64,000 nt of DNA from Harriotta raleighana. Lineage: Eukaryota. The position numbers were made by a program. Below, piece after piece: positions 54,001 to 63,000 of this stretch; within the stretch, counting starts at the first letter, position 1, and each line of letters opens with the position of its first letter. The DNA is taken from contig JBNZDD010013726.1 of assembly GCA_050575255.1 (NCBI GenBank), positions 1,900,409 to 1,964,408 on the forward strand, in the 5' to 3' direction.

Positions 54001-57000
54001 AGCACTAGCTGCGGTGGAGCTGCCGGGCCCAGGCGGCCCGGGTTCGCCCGTTATCCGCTCGCACTCGGTGCTCTCCGCCATTTTGCCCCGGCGCCGCTGA
54101 CAGCCTGACGGTCACATGACACAGTCGCTAGAGCCGACCTATCAGAGCCCAGGCATTTGGGGGATCACGTGGCGAGCAACCTGCTGCGGTTTTTCTCTCG
54201 TCGCCCGTCAATCAACCGCTCCAGGTTCCAATCACACACACACATCTGTACCACATCTGTCTATAGCAAACACGGCGAGGTGGGGGGCGACTAACATTTC
54301 ATCTCATTAAAATGACACTAAAGGATGAATATCCTACCACTGTGGTTCAGCATCAGTCTTATGGTAAAGTGCATTATTGTTACCAATTATACTGTAAATG
54401 GCATTACTCTTGCAATTAGGCAGTTCTGGAAGATTGACTGTCCAGCACCTTGGGGCTTCCTTCAGCCAAGGCGCTATACAAGTGTCATGTTGTTGTTGTA
54501 AAGCTTTTCTTTATAACTTCCTCTGAAATCACTGACACTGCAATAACTCCCCAACCGACCGTCAACATCACCCCACACTCAAGTCATGAATAGTGTTCCA
54601 ATCTTACTACTATGGCAGTAAACAAACCAATAGTGGCCAACGTTACTTTATGGAACTAAAAAATACTTGCATTTGATATAGCGCTTTCCACATCTTTTAG
54701 ACATCTCAAGGCACTTCACAGTAAACTGACTGTATATTTGTGGCATAAACACAGCAGCCAATTAAGCACAGCAGAGTGCATTAAAATAAATTACCAATTT
54801 TTTTTCTTGAGGGATTCTTATCTAATTTATCTAAAGCTTCTGATTTAATTCAGGTTTGACATCAATGTTCACCTCCACCCCACTACTCATTTTTATATAT
54901 AATTCCTGACTAGGTCAAACTTTTTTTTTCCCTGAATGTTTCAATCACACTACTATGGAAATTGAGGTCGATGGTCAAAATGATCTAAATCACGAATGGA
55001 ATTTCAGATCATGCAGAAGAAAAAAAAGTATGAATTAATTATCTTTTGAAGTATCAATCATGCAGCTTGAAACATGTACAAACGCTTTTATTCGAATCAC
55101 GCAGAAGGAGTTACAAATGGAAATATTTCACAGAACTCATACACCAAAATAAATTCCCCTTACATCTGCCACACTGATACACAATGTGCTCACCAGTAAA
55201 ACTATGGTGGTACATTAAATTAGGTTAAAAACTCACAACAAGACATTTGTCCCCTTTACAAAAAAAACACCCAAGTATCACTTGGGTTTAAAAGGAAAAA
55301 AAACAAAGAAAACATTAAAAAGTCCACCAGATCCAATACTGTCTCCAATGTAAAAAAAAATGTGACAGGTTTCTTCATTTCAGAAAGGATTTCAAGGGTG
55401 ACATTTCTCTCATTAAAATGATCGATGTAGCCTGGAAAACAGAATGAACAATAACACGGTTAAGATATTCTCCCTTCAAAACACACACACTAACTGTGTG
55501 AAGTACTGGGCTGTCCGAGACATGTTTAATCTTTTATCAATATTGATTAATGGAAAATTAGTTTGAAGAGCAGACTATGCTTTGATTGGTTGGTAGCATC
55601 TTCAAGGAATTATCCAAGTCCTCCATGCTCTTGGACCCAGCCTTCAGTTTCTTAATCCAACTGCATTTATAAATATATATATTTCACACACTGCAGATGC
55701 TGCAAGAATATATAATTCCATTATCTTTAAAACTGTCCATTACAAACATGAGTCACACATCACTATTGAGCTATAGAAAGAAAAAGCAAGCATTATTTAG
55801 CAATTGGTAGTTCATTATCCAATTACACTTTTAAAAGAAAGCACATATTGTAAGAACAGCTTTATCCATTGAAGAAACAGGAGATCATGGCTATATTACC
55901 ACTTAACTTGAGCCTGTAAAGAAAATAGGACTATATAATTTTTTATTTAAAAAAGGAAAAACAATGTCTGCGTGAATGAAAGTGTATAATTAGAAGTTTT
56001 TTTTAAAAAACGGTCTAATCTTTATGGTGAGACAGAAGGTTGGAAGAGACCATACCACTGGGCATCTCGAATTCTGTCCATAATGTGCAGGCTTGTGCGA
56101 ATCGTGTGGTCATGGTGACATGGCCTGCAATGAAGTTCCCACTGGCAGGTACAAACATAACGGTACAAGTCAGAATTATACTGGTAGAATTCTTATCAGG
56201 TTGATGCTCTGATGTTTTTAAATCCCATTAAGGTACATTACCTGAGATCTTTTACTCATTACTTGTTCAAACAGGACTAGGTTATCCTTACATAATTTAT
56301 GCAAAATTCAAAAGAAAAGGTAAAATGGGAATAAAGAGTAAAATTAGTTATACCTAGATTTAATATACTTACAGTAAAATAGTATATTAGCTGGATAAAC
56401 ATGTAATAAATAAATGAATTTAAATTACTAAACAAAAATTTAAAGAGCTAGTTCAAGGACAGAATTTCAAAAATATATGCAGTCATTTAGACAAATCACT
56501 GAGTAACTTTCATTCCGTGATTAAGAAACTTATCATCATCTTCAGAAGTATGTAATTTAGGTTAGTTTGAGAAATAGAAATGACACTTTCCACCTCAGTC
56601 TTCTGATCATTATATTCTGCTCTGATGAATAACAGACATGGGATGAAATTTGAGATATTCTGTATTACCTAGGCTCCAGCATTTATGTTATTGGATCAAT
56701 TTAACATATGGTGTAAATTATTTGCACCACCACTTATACGATCTTATTTGGGGGAAAAACAGAGGGACATCAGCAACCAGACAATCTGACAAAGTGAAAA
56801 TGGGGAACCAAGTTCAAAGACTCACTTCGCCATCCAAGAATTCAGATACTCCGTGGGGAAAAAATTCAATACAGATTTATTCAAACTGTATCTAGGGAGA
56901 TACTTTAATATTACACTAAGTAAAGATATGATGAATTAAACTATTGCTTCATCTCAAGTTTTTTTTAAAAAAGGCCTTAAATAATCTGTGATGTGATATT

Positions 57001-60000: not shown

Positions 60001-63000
60001 TTTTTAGGAGGACCCCCAAAAAGTTTGGGATAAATGCCATACACCTCGAAGCTTTCCACAACCACATTTGTACCTTGCTTGTACCAACATCATGGAACTT
60101 CTTTTCCATAATCGCCTTCACTGGATTCTCATCTTTAAATGTTATGAAACAGAAACCTCTTCTCTTGTTGGTCTTCGTGTCCATTGGAAGCTCAATAGAT
60201 TCAATCTATTAAATCAAACAAAACCACTGTTAAGTAATTTTTTTCAAATTCCCTGGAAAGACGTGTGTAGCTTCACAATAACTTCATTTTGAAGCTACAT
60301 ACATACCCTCAAGGTTTAAATAACTGCAAAGGGTTTTTTAAAAATTCAATTAACTATATACAGTAAAAGCCCATTTATCCATGACTCGATGAACTGGAAA
60401 ACCAGTTGAACCGGCACCTCAAAAAAAATCCCAATTTGATAAACCGAATGTTATCCGGCAGAATAGTGCTGATGCATTTAATGAATCGATTGTCACACAC
60501 AAGTACTGGGCAGGTATATCGGCTGGCCGCTAGTGGAGCCTAAAGTCACACTACTGCCATTTTTTAAAAGTTGCGCTACTGCCATTTTTTTCCCTCCGTG
60601 GGGGCCATCATTGCAGAAGTTAAGTAGAAATAATAAAGTACTAATACAATATTCTGTTATTATAGTATCTGTTATTACTGTATTTAGTCTATTATTTAGA
60701 TAGTAGTGTACAACATTTACACGTAACCATACAATATTCTGTTATTATCTGTTATTATTTAGTCTATTATTAATATGGTATGTGTTAAAATAATTTTCAA
60801 TTAAAAACAATTCTTTAAAAAACCGTTCAACCGGAAAGCCGTTTAACCGGGACTGGCCGGTCCCATGGGTGCAGGATAAACAAGCTTTGACTGTAGTGTG
60901 AATTTGTTATTCCAGCTCAGGTTCTGGAACATTCCATTATTCAGCAAGGTGTTCAGAAACACTTAAATACAAGGGAAAAAATAAGGGGAAAAAATTAATG
61001 TATTGATGTCTTCAACACAAGAGATGATCCAAGGTCTGGGACTTTCAAGGAACTTAAAGGTTAGCTGTTGTTTATATGTTTCTAAGAAAAATAATGAGTA
61101 TCCTAATACAGTAAAACCTTGTTTATCCAGCACCCAAGGGACCTGGCCAGTGGAGGTTAAACAGTTTTTCCAGTTGAATGGATTTTTTAAAAACATTTTT
61201 TTTTTAAAAATTAACATTTTAAATTATTTTAACATTATTAATAATAGACTAAATAACAGAATATTGCATTACTACTTTATTTATACTTAATTTTGTAATC
61301 ACAGCCCTCACCCAACCTATTTTAGGTCAAATGGACCAAAGTAGCAACTTCTGTGTTGTAAGTTGTAATGCTTTATAGGTTAGACAAGCATCACTATGCG
61401 TGAGATTCCATTAACAGATAATAACGACCGAGGTAAAAAAAAAAGCGACTTTTAAAGGAAGCAGGAGCGATCTCTCTCTCCCTCTCTGTGTATGTGTCTC
61501 TNNNNNNNNNNNNNNNNNNNNNNNNNNNNNNNNNNNNNNNNNNNNNNNNNNNNNNNNNNNNNNNNNNNNNNNNNNNNNNNNNNNNNNNNNNNNNNNNNNN
61601 NNNNNNNNNNNNNNNNNNNNNNNNNNNNNNNNNTCTCTCTGTCCCTTTGGGTGTATATATGTGTGTGTTTCTCTCTCTTTCACTCTCTCTGTCTGTGTAT
61701 CTCTGTCTCTGTGTGTCTGTATGTGTCTCCCTCCCTCTGTATCTGAGTGTGACTCTCTCTCTCTGTGTATCTGAGTGTGTGTCTCTCTCTGTGTATCCGA
61801 GTGTGTGTCTCTCTCTCTGTATGTGTATCTCTCTGTGTCTGTGTGTCTCTCTATCCGTTTCTGTGTGTCTCTCTCCATCTGTGTGTTTGTGTGTTCCACT
61901 CTTTCACCTGTAATTGGCTGCTGCCCAAGGCTCTGAGGATCTCACCAGTTTATACCTGCCTAGTGGCCAGCCGCAAGTACTGCACTCGCGAATACTGCAC
62001 TCGCTTGCGACCGTCCATTCATTAAACGCATCATCGTTATTTGCTGGACAACTTCCGGTTAATTGAATCGGGACTTTTTTTTTTGAGGTGGCGGTTGAAT
62101 GAGTTTTCCAGTTCATTGAGTCATGGATAAACAAGATTTTACTGTAAATTGAAATATATATATATATGTATAGATTGACAAAATCATTGCAACAATTTAC
62201 CTCTCCAAACGTCCCAAAATAGTTCCTCACTTTTTCCTCTGGACAGTCGGGGTCCAAACCACCAACAAAGATCTTTTTGATTGGTTCCTTTCCTTTCATA
62301 GCTTGAGCTCTCTTCGGATCAATAACTCTCCCATCAAGTTTGTGCTCTTTATATTTCAATACCTGGACGTTTAGGAAGAAAATCATGATCATTCATTGCT
62401 TAAATTGCAAAATGAATTGCAATAAAATCAATTTGAAATGATAGAATATAGATGAGGAAAGCCAAAGATTAAGATACACAGAAGTATAACGATTTGCTTT
62501 GGGGGGGAAAAAAAACTTAAGACCTCATGCACAAGCACTTAATTATTTTGAGAATAGACCCATTAGATATTTGACGTCTACTTTACCCAACTTTGGTCTA
62601 TGTGCACAGTAAAATGCATTAACTCTGTAGATAACCTGTATACTTGCTTTCATTGGAGCGAGGTAGATTAAATACATATTACATTATCTATGTATATATG
62701 CATTATTACAATAGTAACAGTAGCAATAAACTACAAATAATATTGAAACATAGGTAATGATTTCAAACTAAAATTAAATGTGCTTTCAACCACTTTCTAG
62801 AGATTATTCTAACAATAAAGACAAACAATTTAAAGTTACAATTAGAGCGGTTATTAGATTTAAACATACTTAAAATTCCAGCCCAAATTAAAGTGTCCCC
62901 ATGCTCCCATTAACACTAATTATTTCCTCTAAACAAGAAACCATGGAACATCCCTCTGCAGAGCAAGTTGAATAAAGCTGTTCATTTAATCTTGGAAATA

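What the first reader, a model, noticed from the sequence alone, without database searches (positions are those of the whole stretch)
55065..62362. Divergent hnRNP D-family gene beside BLOC1S2/CDH23: possible ohnologue lost in mammals
Seen: an intact, intron-containing hnRNP D/DL/AB-type gene directly upstream of BLOC1S2 and CDH23. Its protein mixes diagnostic residues: HNRNPD-like [11 protein letters not shown] and IMEKK; HNRNPDL-like KGKEP, MDTKTN and YGYGQGY; HNRNPAB-like LDGRVID and KKFH. It also has unique changes (KVEIK instead of the family's KCEIK, and a TQTQYRPY end). Known: human HNRNPD/HNRNPDL are on 4q21 and HNRNPAB on 5q35, while CDH23 and BLOC1S2 are on 10q, and chromosomes 4/5/8/10 form a 2R paralogon. 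I know of no human family member on 10q. Inference: this is a separate 2R paralogue retained in this lineage and probably annotated only as 'hnRNP D-like'.
[Added by the scan's program, not by the reader: the finding's places include an assembly gap (unread letters, written N; its length is only estimated) at 61502 to 61633. Whether the letters on both sides are continuous or in frame is not known: test that first.]
Basis: partly seen in the sequence, partly recalled or inferred. Interest (0 to 1): 0.78.

Follow-up and report, generated by a model that had tools for sequence, protein, structure and literature searches.

The report
Fourth hnRNP D-family gene in cartilaginous fishes
The window holds the last five coding exons of an RNA-binding protein gene of the hnRNP D/DL/AB family that forms its own branch, seen so far only in sharks, rays and chimaeras, and that lies beside BLOC1S2, where an extra copy left by the early vertebrate genome duplications would be expected.

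Summary
The sequence observation holds. On the minus strand, 62362..57701 carries five GT-AG-bounded coding exons (208 codons) of a 2xRRM hnRNP D-type gene, followed by about 2.6 kb of 3' UTR. "Intact" is not shown: the N-terminal and RRM1 exons lie beyond the window end. The N gap (61502-61633) sits in a (TC/TG)n array inside the 1995-bp intron and touches no exon.

The gene belongs to a well-supported clade (G1) of 9-10 chondrichthyan proteins, which carry inconsistent database names ("D-like", "D0-like", "A/B-like"). G1 lies outside the D, AB and DL clades. Callorhinchus has its own D and AB copies. No bony-vertebrate protein among 198 tree rows falls in G1.

Relations among the four clades are unresolved. 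AU tests do not reject G1+DL (p 0.28-0.33) or G1+shark AB (p 0.23). I could not show that cartilaginous fishes also have a canonical DL; only an unnamed, early-branching DL-type protein hints at it.

The position beside BLOC1S2 places the gene in the chromosome-10-type copy of the block that holds HNRNPD/DL on human chromosome 4. I judge a fourth 2R paralogue, lost in bony vertebrates, the most likely reading (about 0.6). It is a new member of a known family, of moderate interest.

The parts
62201..62362 (-). Coding exon A (54 aa): end of RRM1, linker, and start of RRM2 with RNP-2 (KIFVGGL)
   Evidence: AG acceptor at 62364-62363 and GT donor at 62200-62199. Translation. Pfam RRM_1. 100% identical to residues 120-173 of P0006. 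87% identical to elasmobranch G1 proteins.
61502..61633 (.). Assembly gap (132 N) inside the intron between exons A and B
   Evidence: It is flanked on both sides by the same degenerate (TC/TG)n 31-nt repeat family. No exon lies within 560 bp.
60074..60205 (-). Coding exon B (44 aa): rest of RRM2 with RNP-1 (RGFCFITF)
   Evidence: Pfam RRM_1. PDB best hits are hnRNP D-like and hnRNP D0 RRM2. Exact match to P0006 residues 174-217.
59788..59881 (-). Coding exon C (31 codons + 1 nt): [21 protein letters not shown] (RGG box)
   Evidence: 87-97% identical to elasmobranch G1. V instead of the family's C at its first residue is one of 14 G1-only states.
58447..58614 (-). Coding exon D (168 nt): Gly/Tyr-rich low-complexity exon, a cassette that can be skipped in frame
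   Evidence: Up to 91% identical to elasmobranch G1. Predicted isoforms P0007, P0010 and P0011 of the orthologues lack it.
57701..57771 (-). Last coding exon E (..GKAPRRGGGTQTQYRPY, stop TAA): presumed PY-type nuclear import signal
   Evidence: Up to 91% identical to elasmobranch G1. The reading as a PY signal is by homology and recalled, not tested.
55065..57700 (-). Presumed 3' UTR, with AATAAA at 55092-55087
   Evidence: Sequence only. No transcript evidence was available, so the extent is inferred.
50626..54081 (-). BLOC1S2, directly downstream on the same strand. Candidate exon 1 is 54081..53925, exon 2 starts at 52812, and Pfam-confirmed exons lie within 52005-52283 and 50626-50877. It contains the N gap 53537-53683 in its first intron.
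   Evidence: Pfam BLOC1_2, 1.5e-10 and 1.4e-11. Exon 1/2 phase fit read from the sequence. Gap.
7671..46965 (+). 3' part of CDH23 (many cadherin-repeat exons; last coding exon 46627-46965 ending ITEL), convergent with BLOC1S2
   Evidence: ORF list. Pfam Cadherin. Colinear match to Cadherin-23 structures, E 3.6e-69.

Best explanation
The window carries the 3' part (about 57% of the coding sequence) of a fourth member of the vertebrate hnRNP D / D-like / A/B family, here called G1. G1 is conserved across chimaeras, sharks and rays and was not found in bony vertebrates. The most likely origin is a paralogue left by the two early vertebrate genome duplications. It sits in the chromosome-10-type copy of the block that carries HNRNPD+HNRNPDL on human chromosome 4 and HNRNPAB on chromosome 5. 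On this reading it was lost on the bony-vertebrate stem.

By homology (inferred, not tested), the protein is a nuclear, shuttling RNA-binding protein. It would have two RRMs that bind single-stranded U/A-rich RNA or DNA, an RGG stretch, a Gly/Tyr-rich self-associating exon that can be skipped in frame, and a C-terminal PY-type import signal.
For: SHOWN
1. Gene structure and family: five exons with fitting splice sites and phases; RRM_1; PDB hits to hnRNP DL and D0 RRM2.
2. Each of the five window exons, compared on its own, is closest to the elasmobranch G1 proteins. Mean identity to the elasmobranch G1 rows is 87, 93 and 93% for exons A-C; for D and E, which some G1 isoforms lack, the best G1 rows reach 91%. 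No row of another group exceeds 84% on any exon.
3. In ML trees of 56 and 59 rows, G1 (9 rows), D, DL and AB are each one clade. Support is G1 100/99 and 99/100; D 99/99 and 97/99; DL 99/98 and 100/99; AB 93/80 and 91/81. The four clades also appear in the quick tree with the tail included.
4. Callorhinchus and the sharks have their own D and AB.
5. In a FastTree of 198 rows drawn from the searches, the G1 clade holds exactly the 10 chondrichthyan rows (0.967).
6. G1 has 14 fixed states of its own and shares 0 derived columns with DL, 0 with D and 2 with AB.
7. The DL clade holds three unnamed non-amniote DL-type proteins. One of them (P0247) branches before the other two unnamed proteins plus amniotes (98/96). 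That is where a cartilaginous-fish DL would fall.
8. Position: BLOC1S2 lies directly downstream.

FROM PAPERS
- Pig gene order is CWF19L1, SNORA12, BLOC1S2, PKD2L1, SCD, WNT8B, SEC31B (PMC12071171, table passage). The same block lies on chicken chromosome 6 (PMC13499478, table passage).
- SCD1/SEC31B on Hsa10 are paralogous to SCD5/SEC31A, which lie beside HNRNPD/HNRPDL on Hsa4. A further family member is on Hsa5. All lie in the NK-linked paralogon (PMC3112091, passages).

PROXY
- In S. canicula and Stegostoma, G1 and D0 lie on contigs of different length: 30.8 vs 277 Mb and 28.0 vs 194 Mb.
Against: The relations among the four clades are open forks. Holding G1 with DL costs only 0.21 and 0.13 log-likelihood units (p-AU 0.33 and 0.28). 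Holding G1 with chondrichthyan AB costs 1.49 (p-AU 0.225). Sequence alone therefore does not exclude orthology with DL or a cartilaginous-fish duplicate of AB.

No named chondrichthyan DL appeared in the best 120 hits of either full-length search. G1 and DL have complementary distributions among the named rows.

Only one outgroup was used (a hemichordate, on a long branch), and no cyclostome sequence. The searches list only the best 120 of 2705 and 4645 hits.

The link to the Pfam-confirmed BLOC1S2 exons crosses a 147-N scaffold gap. Synteny in other cartilaginous fishes and in fishes with DL could not be examined. Absence from bony vertebrates is absence from these lists, not from genomes.
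Confidence: 0.6

Rival explanations
1. G1 is simply the cartilaginous-fish orthologue of HNRNPDL. It would be strongly diverged from the bony-vertebrate gene and would lie on a different chromosome from HNRNPD. Either DL moved next to D in bony vertebrates, or it moved away in cartilaginous fishes.
For: Among named rows, G1 is only in chondrichthyans and DL only in amniotes. G1+DL held together is not rejected (p-AU 0.33 and 0.28). No named shark DL appears in the best 120 hits. The linker has the same length as in DL (KGKE), and the tail shows some likeness (MDTKTN, YGYGQGY, Y-x-PY end).
Against: G1 has none of the 16 states fixed in the DL clade, and no column shows a state shared by G1 and DL alone. 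The KGKE-length linker is also in the hemichordate outgroup and in bony-fish D, so it is ancestral.

The G1-to-DL path is about 0.6 changes per column in the first tree (0.35 in the second). Cartilaginous-to-bony paths are about 0.045 within D and 0.24 within AB (0.04 and 0.17).

Zebrafish DL is reported 85% identical to the human protein (PMC9842712, passage), whereas G1 is 64-66% identical to mammalian DL. P0247 already carries the DL states and branches before the other unnamed DL-type proteins plus amniotes.

This reading needs a move of the gene into or out of exactly the paralogous block.
Confidence: 0.2
2. G1 is a duplicate of HNRNPAB (or of D) made on the cartilaginous-fish stem. It then diverged quickly and came to lie beside BLOC1S2 by chance.
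For: G1 held together with chondrichthyan AB is not rejected (1.49 log-likelihood units, p-AU 0.225). The free trees put G1 next to AB, but with no support (41/0). The only 2 columns that pair G1 with another clade pair it with AB. Shark AB proteins are the best non-G1 hits of a G1 query.
Against: The AB clade, bony and cartilaginous together, excludes G1 at 93/80 and 91/81. G1 keeps the longer linker that all AB rows shown in the alignment lack, and it keeps outgroup states (E in LSWET) that the D, DL and AB consensus have changed. The D clade excludes G1 at 97-99. A random landing in the one block that is paralogous to the D/DL locus is unlikely (inference).
Confidence: 0.12
3. The gene is real but its neighbourhood is an assembly artefact: the scaffold wrongly joins the hnRNP contig to the BLOC1S2/CDH23 contig at the 147-N gap.
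For: The N run 53537-53683 lies between the hnRNP gene and every Pfam-confirmed BLOC1S2 exon. The assembly has three gaps in 64 kb.
Against: On the hnRNP side of the gap there is a GC-rich stretch with an ATG (54081) and a phase-1 donor (after 53925). This fits the acceptor and frame of the next BLOC1S2 exon (52812) and gives ..DDAGVETAEE... A chance fit of phase alone is about 1 in 3, so this is weak support. I had no independent assembly to check.
Confidence: 0.05

Closest known systems
HNRNPDL (hnRNP D-like, JKTBP)
   Same: 2xRRM core. The RRM1-RRM2 linker has the same length (KGKE). It has a Gly/Tyr-rich cassette exon followed by a short last exon ending Y-x-PY. The exon D counterpart of human DL forms the fibril core and is alternatively spliced (PMC9842712, passages).
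   Different: G1 has none of the 16 DL-only residues. Identity to mammalian DL is 64-66%. It is not beside HNRNPD, judging by different contig lengths in two sharks, whereas fused bird and lizard gene models run from DL into D. It lies beside BLOC1S2.
HNRNPAB (hnRNP A/B, CBF-A)
   Same: Highest overall likeness outside G1. Shark AB proteins are the next-best hits (64-75% identity). Shared residues include LDGRVID and [11 protein letters not shown].
   Different: AB lacks one linker residue (AMK-KEP). Callorhinchus and the sharks have a separate AB that groups with bony-vertebrate AB. The G1 tail ends QYRPY, not YKPY.
HNRNPD (AUF1, D0)
   Same: Same exon plan as I recall it for HNRNPD exons 4-8: phase-0 boundaries in the RRMs and a skippable in-frame Gly/Tyr exon flanked by phase-1 introns. 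Shared motifs include IMEKK and [11 protein letters not shown].
   Different: G1 has none of the 6 D-only residues. The D clade excludes it at 97-99. Callorhinchus has its own D (P0224).

Membership tests
hnRNP D subfamily (D / DL / AB type 2xRRM hnRNPs) | Two tandem RRMs with RNP-2 and RNP-1 motifs | tested here: met
   RRM2 is in the window: Pfam RRM_1 on exons A and B, with KIFVGGL and RGFCFITF read. RRM1 is outside the window. It is present in P0006 residues 1-119 and in all orthologues.
hnRNP D subfamily (D / DL / AB type 2xRRM hnRNPs) | RGG stretch, Gly/Tyr-rich cassette exon that keeps the frame when skipped, and short last exon ending in a PY motif | tested here: met
   Exon C ends in phase 1, exon D is 168 nt, and exon E starts in phase 1. 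Orthologue isoforms without exon D exist. The tail ends ..RRGGGTQTQYRPY. That this is a working import signal is recalled homology, not tested.
HNRNPD orthologue | Falls in the D clade and carries the D-only residues | tested here: not met
   The D clade (17 rows) excludes it at 99/99 and 97/99. It has 0 of the 6 D-only states. A separate Callorhinchus D exists (P0224).
HNRNPAB orthologue | Falls in the AB clade and has the shortened linker (AMK-KEP/KDP) | tested here: not met
   The AB clade (22 rows) excludes it at 93/80 and 91/81. The linker is one residue longer. A separate Callorhinchus AB exists (P0090). Caveat: G1 held with chondrichthyan AB is not rejected (p-AU 0.225).
HNRNPDL orthologue | Sister to, or inside, the DL clade and carrying the DL-only residues | tested here: inconclusive
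   The DL clade excludes it at 99/98 and 100/99, and it has 0 of the 16 DL-only states. A sister position is not rejected (p-AU 0.33 and 0.28).
HNRNPDL orthologue | Lies next to HNRNPD, as in amniotes | tested here: not met
   No D-type exon is in the window. In S. canicula and Stegostoma, the G1 and D0 proteins come from contigs of different length. This is a proxy only. Amniote adjacency is seen as fused DL-D gene models.
2R ohnologue (fourth member of the family) | Own clade at least as old as the split between chimaeras and elasmobranchs, not nested in another member | tested here: met
   The G1 clade has a Callorhinchus row plus 8 elasmobranch rows, supported at 100/99 and 99/100. It has 14 fixed states of its own. 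An age back to 2R is not shown.
2R ohnologue (fourth member of the family) | Lies in the paralogous chromosome block | tested here: met
   BLOC1S2 is next door. BLOC1S2 lies in the SCD/WNT8B/SEC31B block in pig and chicken. That block is paired with SCD5/SEC31A/HNRNPD-HNRPDL in PMC3112091. The link depends on a scaffold join across 147 N.
2R ohnologue (fourth member of the family) | Coexists in one genome with D, DL and AB | tested here: inconclusive
   D and AB coexist with it in Callorhinchus and the sharks. No named chondrichthyan DL was found.

The most novel reading that the evidence does not exclude
G1 is a true 2R ohnologue of the HNRNPD/DL locus. It was retained for more than 400 million years in all cartilaginous fishes alongside D, DL and AB, and was lost once on the bony-vertebrate stem. 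The family would then be mapped on three of the four NK-linked paralogons: D+DL on Hsa4, AB on Hsa5 and G1 on the Hsa10 type. G1 also keeps outgroup states that D, DL and AB have all changed, which would make it the slowest-changing witness of the ancestral vertebrate protein.
Probability: 0.5. Interest if true: 0.45.

Novelty: new member of a known kind. Interest (0 to 1): 0.38.

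Why it matters
If the reading holds, the well-studied AUF1/hnRNP D-like/CBF-A family had four members in early jawed vertebrates, not three. 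Cartilaginous fishes would still carry the one that bony vertebrates lost. That matters in four ways:
- Annotation: the same gene is now called "D-like", "D0-like" or "A/B-like" in different species, and the true AB gene is also called "D-like" in some.
- Reconstruction of the NK-linked paralogon.
- Dating the D/DL tandem duplication.
- Any use of shark sequences as "orthologues" of the disease gene HNRNPDL.

It is an ordinary kind of discovery, a retained ohnologue, and not a new mechanism.

Tried and rejected
1. I looked for the 5' exons in 62363-64000 and in the rest of the window by ORF listing and tblastn. None were found.

2. I first took P0006 (Callorhinchus "A/B-like", 100% on exon A) as the full-length product. 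Its last 112 residues turned out to be identical to the Callorhinchus AB protein P0090, while residues 120-238 match the window exactly. It is a chimeric record, so I used only its first 238-243 residues.

3. The dog "D like" record P0097 is a DL/D chimera, and P0193 and P0086-P0088 are fused DL+D models. P0097 was dropped. The DL parts of P0193, P0086 and P0087 were used as slices.

4. I tried to name the unnamed DL-type representatives with the listing of cluster members.

5. P0255, P0261 and P0263 look like decayed copies of a mammal-type DL of unknown organism and were not used. Hits of 94-98% identity to the mammalian query were not fetched. The human-labelled P0235 was not used.

6. The careful tree with the tail columns did not finish in time. 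Only the quick tree is reported.

7. Literature searches for a described fourth member and for zebrafish DL position found no paper that treats this. Two papers were opened in vain: the pkd paper PMC5318412 and the catshark preprint.

8. Rfam found only three tRNA-like (SINE) matches and nothing in the gene.

The exons were handled one by one, and database proteins served as full-length stand-ins.

No vertebrate genome could therefore be scanned for synteny or for a shark DL.

11. Supplements were closed. Additional file 1B of PMC3112091, an HNRNP tree, may bear on the claim, and I could not see it.

Full report
WHAT IS IN THE SEQUENCE

The gene lies on the minus strand. Reading the DNA and the stop-to-stop frames gives five coding exons with AG acceptors and GT donors:
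- A: 62362..62201 (54 aa).
- B: 60205..60074 (44 aa).
- C: 59881..59788 (31 codons plus one base).
- D: 58614..58447 (168 nt).
- E: 57771..57701 (22 codons after the split codon, then TAA).

The phases fit: 0/0, 0/0, 0/1, 1/1, 1/stop. Skipping exon D keeps the frame. Exons A and B match Pfam RRM_1. Exon B's best solved relatives are hnRNP D-like and hnRNP D0 RRM2. The stretch 57700..55065 is therefore a plausible 2.6-kb 3' UTR, but I had no transcript evidence for it.

The gene is not shown to be intact. tblastn with five full-length relatives finds no N-terminal or RRM1 exon anywhere in the window. The first exons lie beyond base 64000. Only 208 codons are visible, out of about 362-374 in the elasmobranch orthologues.

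THE GAP

The run of N at 61502-61633 lies inside the 1995-bp intron between exons A and B. It is 567 bp from exon A and about 1.3 kb from exon B. It sits in a degenerate (TC/TG)n array whose 31-nt repeat family has one copy left of the gap and 20 copies right of it. A database protein reads exon A straight into exon B, letter for letter. The gap therefore has no bearing on the frame. I did not fill it or look its letters up.

A second gap (53537-53683) matters more. It lies between the hnRNP gene and all Pfam-confirmed BLOC1S2 exons.

NEIGHBOURS

Directly downstream on the same strand is BLOC1S2, with Pfam BLOC1_2 in 52005-52283 and 50626-50877. A GC-rich stretch on the hnRNP side of the second gap holds an ATG (54081) and a phase-1 donor (after 53925). 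These fit the acceptor (52812) and frame of the next exon, giving ..DDAGVETAEE... This is weak support that the two sides of the gap belong together.

On the plus strand, the 3' part of a large cadherin gene runs from about 7.7 kb to 46965 and ends ITEL. One 170-aa frame is colinear with Cadherin-23 structures at E 3.6e-69. That ITEL is the known CDH23 end is my recollection.

WHOSE GENE IS IT

Full-length database proteins served as stand-ins.

Exon A, searched against longer proteins (80 hits among 85 candidates), is 100% identical to one UniRef protein of Callorhinchus milii (P0006, "A/B-like"). It is 94% identical to proteins of nine elasmobranch records. These are named variously "D-like", "D0-like" or "A/B-like".

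P0006 is a chimera. Its residues 120-238 equal exons A, B and the first 21 residues of exon C. Its last 112 residues equal the tail of a second Callorhinchus protein, P0090. I used only its front part. The window is thus consistent with Callorhinchus milii or a close relative.

Compared singly, each of the five window exons is closest to the elasmobranch group, which I call G1. Mean identity to the elasmobranch G1 rows is 87, 93 and 93% for exons A-C. For D and E, which some G1 isoforms lack, the best G1 rows reach 91%. No row of any other group exceeds 84% on any exon.

THE FAMILY IN CARTILAGINOUS FISHES

Two full-length searches were made: best 120 of 2705 hits; best 120 of 4645 hits. They show three kinds of chondrichthyan protein:
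- G1.
- An AB type (P0090 of Callorhinchus and P0091-P0095 of rays and sharks, with the shortened AMK-KEP linker and a ..YKPY end).
- D0 (P0132, P0119, P0129, P0113, and P0224 of Callorhinchus).

With a pure G1 query, only chondrichthyan proteins are 89% identical or more. The next hits are shark AB (64-75%). After that come bony-vertebrate D0, AB and mammalian DL, all at 60-76%. No named chondrichthyan DL was listed.

TREES

On the conserved core (185-188 columns; IQ-TREE, LG+C20+F+G4; one hemichordate outgroup), the rows fall into four clades:

| Clade | Rows | Support |
|---|---|---|
| G1 | 9 | 100/99, 99/100 |
| D | 17, cartilaginous and bony | 99/99, 97/99 |
| AB | 22, cartilaginous and bony | 93/80, 91/81 |
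| DL | 7, 10 | 99/98, 100/99 |

The forks between the four clades are open. A quick tree that adds the tail columns gives the same four clades; its careful version did not finish. In a FastTree of 198 rows (named hits plus two unnamed DL-type representatives and two DL slices), the G1 clade holds exactly the ten chondrichthyan rows (0.967).

A column count shows 14 states fixed in G1 alone, 16 in DL alone, 6 in D alone and 1 in AB alone. No column pairs G1 with DL or with D, and two pair it with AB. Some G1 states, such as E in LSWET and LDGRVID, are those of the outgroup.

WHAT THE TREES DO NOT DECIDE

Holding G1 with DL costs 0.21 and 0.13 log-likelihood units (p-AU 0.33 and 0.28). Holding G1 with chondrichthyan AB costs 1.49 (p-AU 0.225). 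Neither is rejected.

Among named rows, G1 (cartilaginous fishes) and DL (amniotes) have complementary distributions. This is what orthology would also give.

To extend DL, I searched the unnamed 50%-identity library with a mammalian DL. I fetched six representatives that are 73-79% identical to it:
- Two are intact DL-type proteins (P0244, P0247).
- One (P0264) is a DL part fused to a Frag1/DRAM/TMEM150-type front.
- Three look like decayed copies and were set aside.

In the tree, P0247 branches first in DL, then P0244+P0264, then amniotes (98/96). P0247 carries the DL-only residues and stands where a cartilaginous-fish DL would stand. This is a hint that DL and G1 coexist, not a demonstration.

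A paper states that zebrafish hnRNPDL is 85% identical to the human protein (PMC9842712, passage read). G1 is 64-66% identical to mammalian DL. The cartilaginous-to-bony path within D is about 0.045 changes per column and within AB about 0.24, while G1 to DL is about 0.6. The second tree gives about 0.04, 0.17 and 0.35.

POSITION

Castro et al. 2011 (PMC3112091; passages read) place SCD1 and SEC31B (Hsa10) and SCD5, SEC31A and the HNRNPD/HNRPDL pair (Hsa4) in the NK-linked paralogon Hsa4/5/10/2-8. They note a further family member on Hsa5. Two association papers give the order CWF19L1, SNORA12, BLOC1S2, PKD2L1, SCD, WNT8B, SEC31B in pig (PMC12071171, table passage) and the same block on chicken chromosome 6 (PMC13499478, table passage). 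No hnRNP gene is listed there.

A family member beside BLOC1S2 therefore sits in the chromosome-10-type copy of the very block that carries D/DL on chromosome 4. Three further observations fit:
- Fused gene models in a pigeon and three squamates run from DL into D, in line with their adjacency in amniotes.
- P0264 suggests a TMEM150-type neighbour of DL in a non-amniote.
- In two sharks, G1 and D0 come from contigs of different length.

I could not examine any vertebrate genome for synteny.

VERDICT

The most likely reading (about 0.6) is a fourth paralogue of the D/DL/AB family. It would date from the early vertebrate duplications, be kept in chimaeras, sharks and rays, and be lost in bony vertebrates.

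The rivals are:
- The cartilaginous-fish orthologue of DL, much diverged and elsewhere in the genome (0.2).
- A cartilaginous-fish duplicate of AB (0.12).
- A scaffold misjoin that would void the synteny argument (0.05).

How the protein works is inferred from its relatives only. It has two RRMs with intact RNP motifs, an RGG stretch, a Gly/Tyr-rich exon that predicted isoforms of the orthologues skip, and a basic stretch ending in PY.

My literature searches found no paper describing such a fourth member. The gene models themselves are in public annotation under inconsistent names. I rate it a new member of a known kind, of moderate interest.

Noticed in passing
protein P0006 (UniRef, Callorhinchus milii, 'A/B-like'); window exons 62362..59819: The public record is a chimera. 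Residues 120-238 equal the window's exons A, B and the first 21 residues of exon C. The last 112 residues equal the Callorhinchus AB-type protein P0090. The switch falls in the shared QQQQWGGRG stretch.
   Followed up: yes
proteins P0193 (Columba livia), P0086, P0087, P0088 (squamates), P0097 (dog): Gene models fuse HNRNPDL and HNRNPD into one protein (DL part first, then D), or mix the two as in the dog record. This inflates their scores to the top of the hit lists.
   Followed up: partly
protein P0264 (unnamed representative): A Frag1/DRAM/TMEM150-type membrane front is fused to the second half of a DL-type protein (Pfam). It is probably two neighbouring genes merged, which would put a TMEM150-type gene beside DL in a non-amniote.
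   Followed up: partly
naming of hits: In cartilaginous fishes the AB-type gene is also labelled 'D-like' or 'D0-like' (Mobula, Scyliorhinus torazame, Leucoraja, Narcine). Names in this family cannot be used as orthology.
   Followed up: partly
window 60356-60900 and 61107-62149 (intron between exons A and B): Copies of an interspersed repeat with inverted ends (TACAGTAAAA..GTTTATCC) lie in both orientations around the gap. The arms 60356-60428 and 62077-62149 are 85% complementary.
   Followed up: no
window 11071-11126 (-), 27256-27312 (+), 45002-45056 (-): Three tRNA-like matches at Rfam gathering score lie in CDH23 introns and downstream. Similar frames recur at about 4500, 11000, 27200, 44900 and 48000 in the ORF list. 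They look like a tRNA-derived SINE family.
   Followed up: no
window 9956-10519 (+): A reverse-transcriptase fragment (Pfam RVT_1, 4.9e-10) lies inside a CDH23 intron. It looks like a LINE remnant.
   Followed up: no
window 15946-16750: A long CT-rich low-complexity tract has strong GC and AT skew and a 2-N gap at 16461-16462, inside a CDH23 intron.
   Followed up: no
window 46965-50626: CDH23 and BLOC1S2 are convergent neighbours here, less than 4 kb apart, with no gap between them. In human they lie far apart on chromosome 10 (my recollection, not checked).
   Followed up: no
alignment columns (e.g. LSWET, position 117 of P0014): G1 keeps the outgroup's residue where the consensus of D, DL and AB shares a change (E versus D). 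This would fit G1 branching before the other three, but it is a single column.
   Followed up: no
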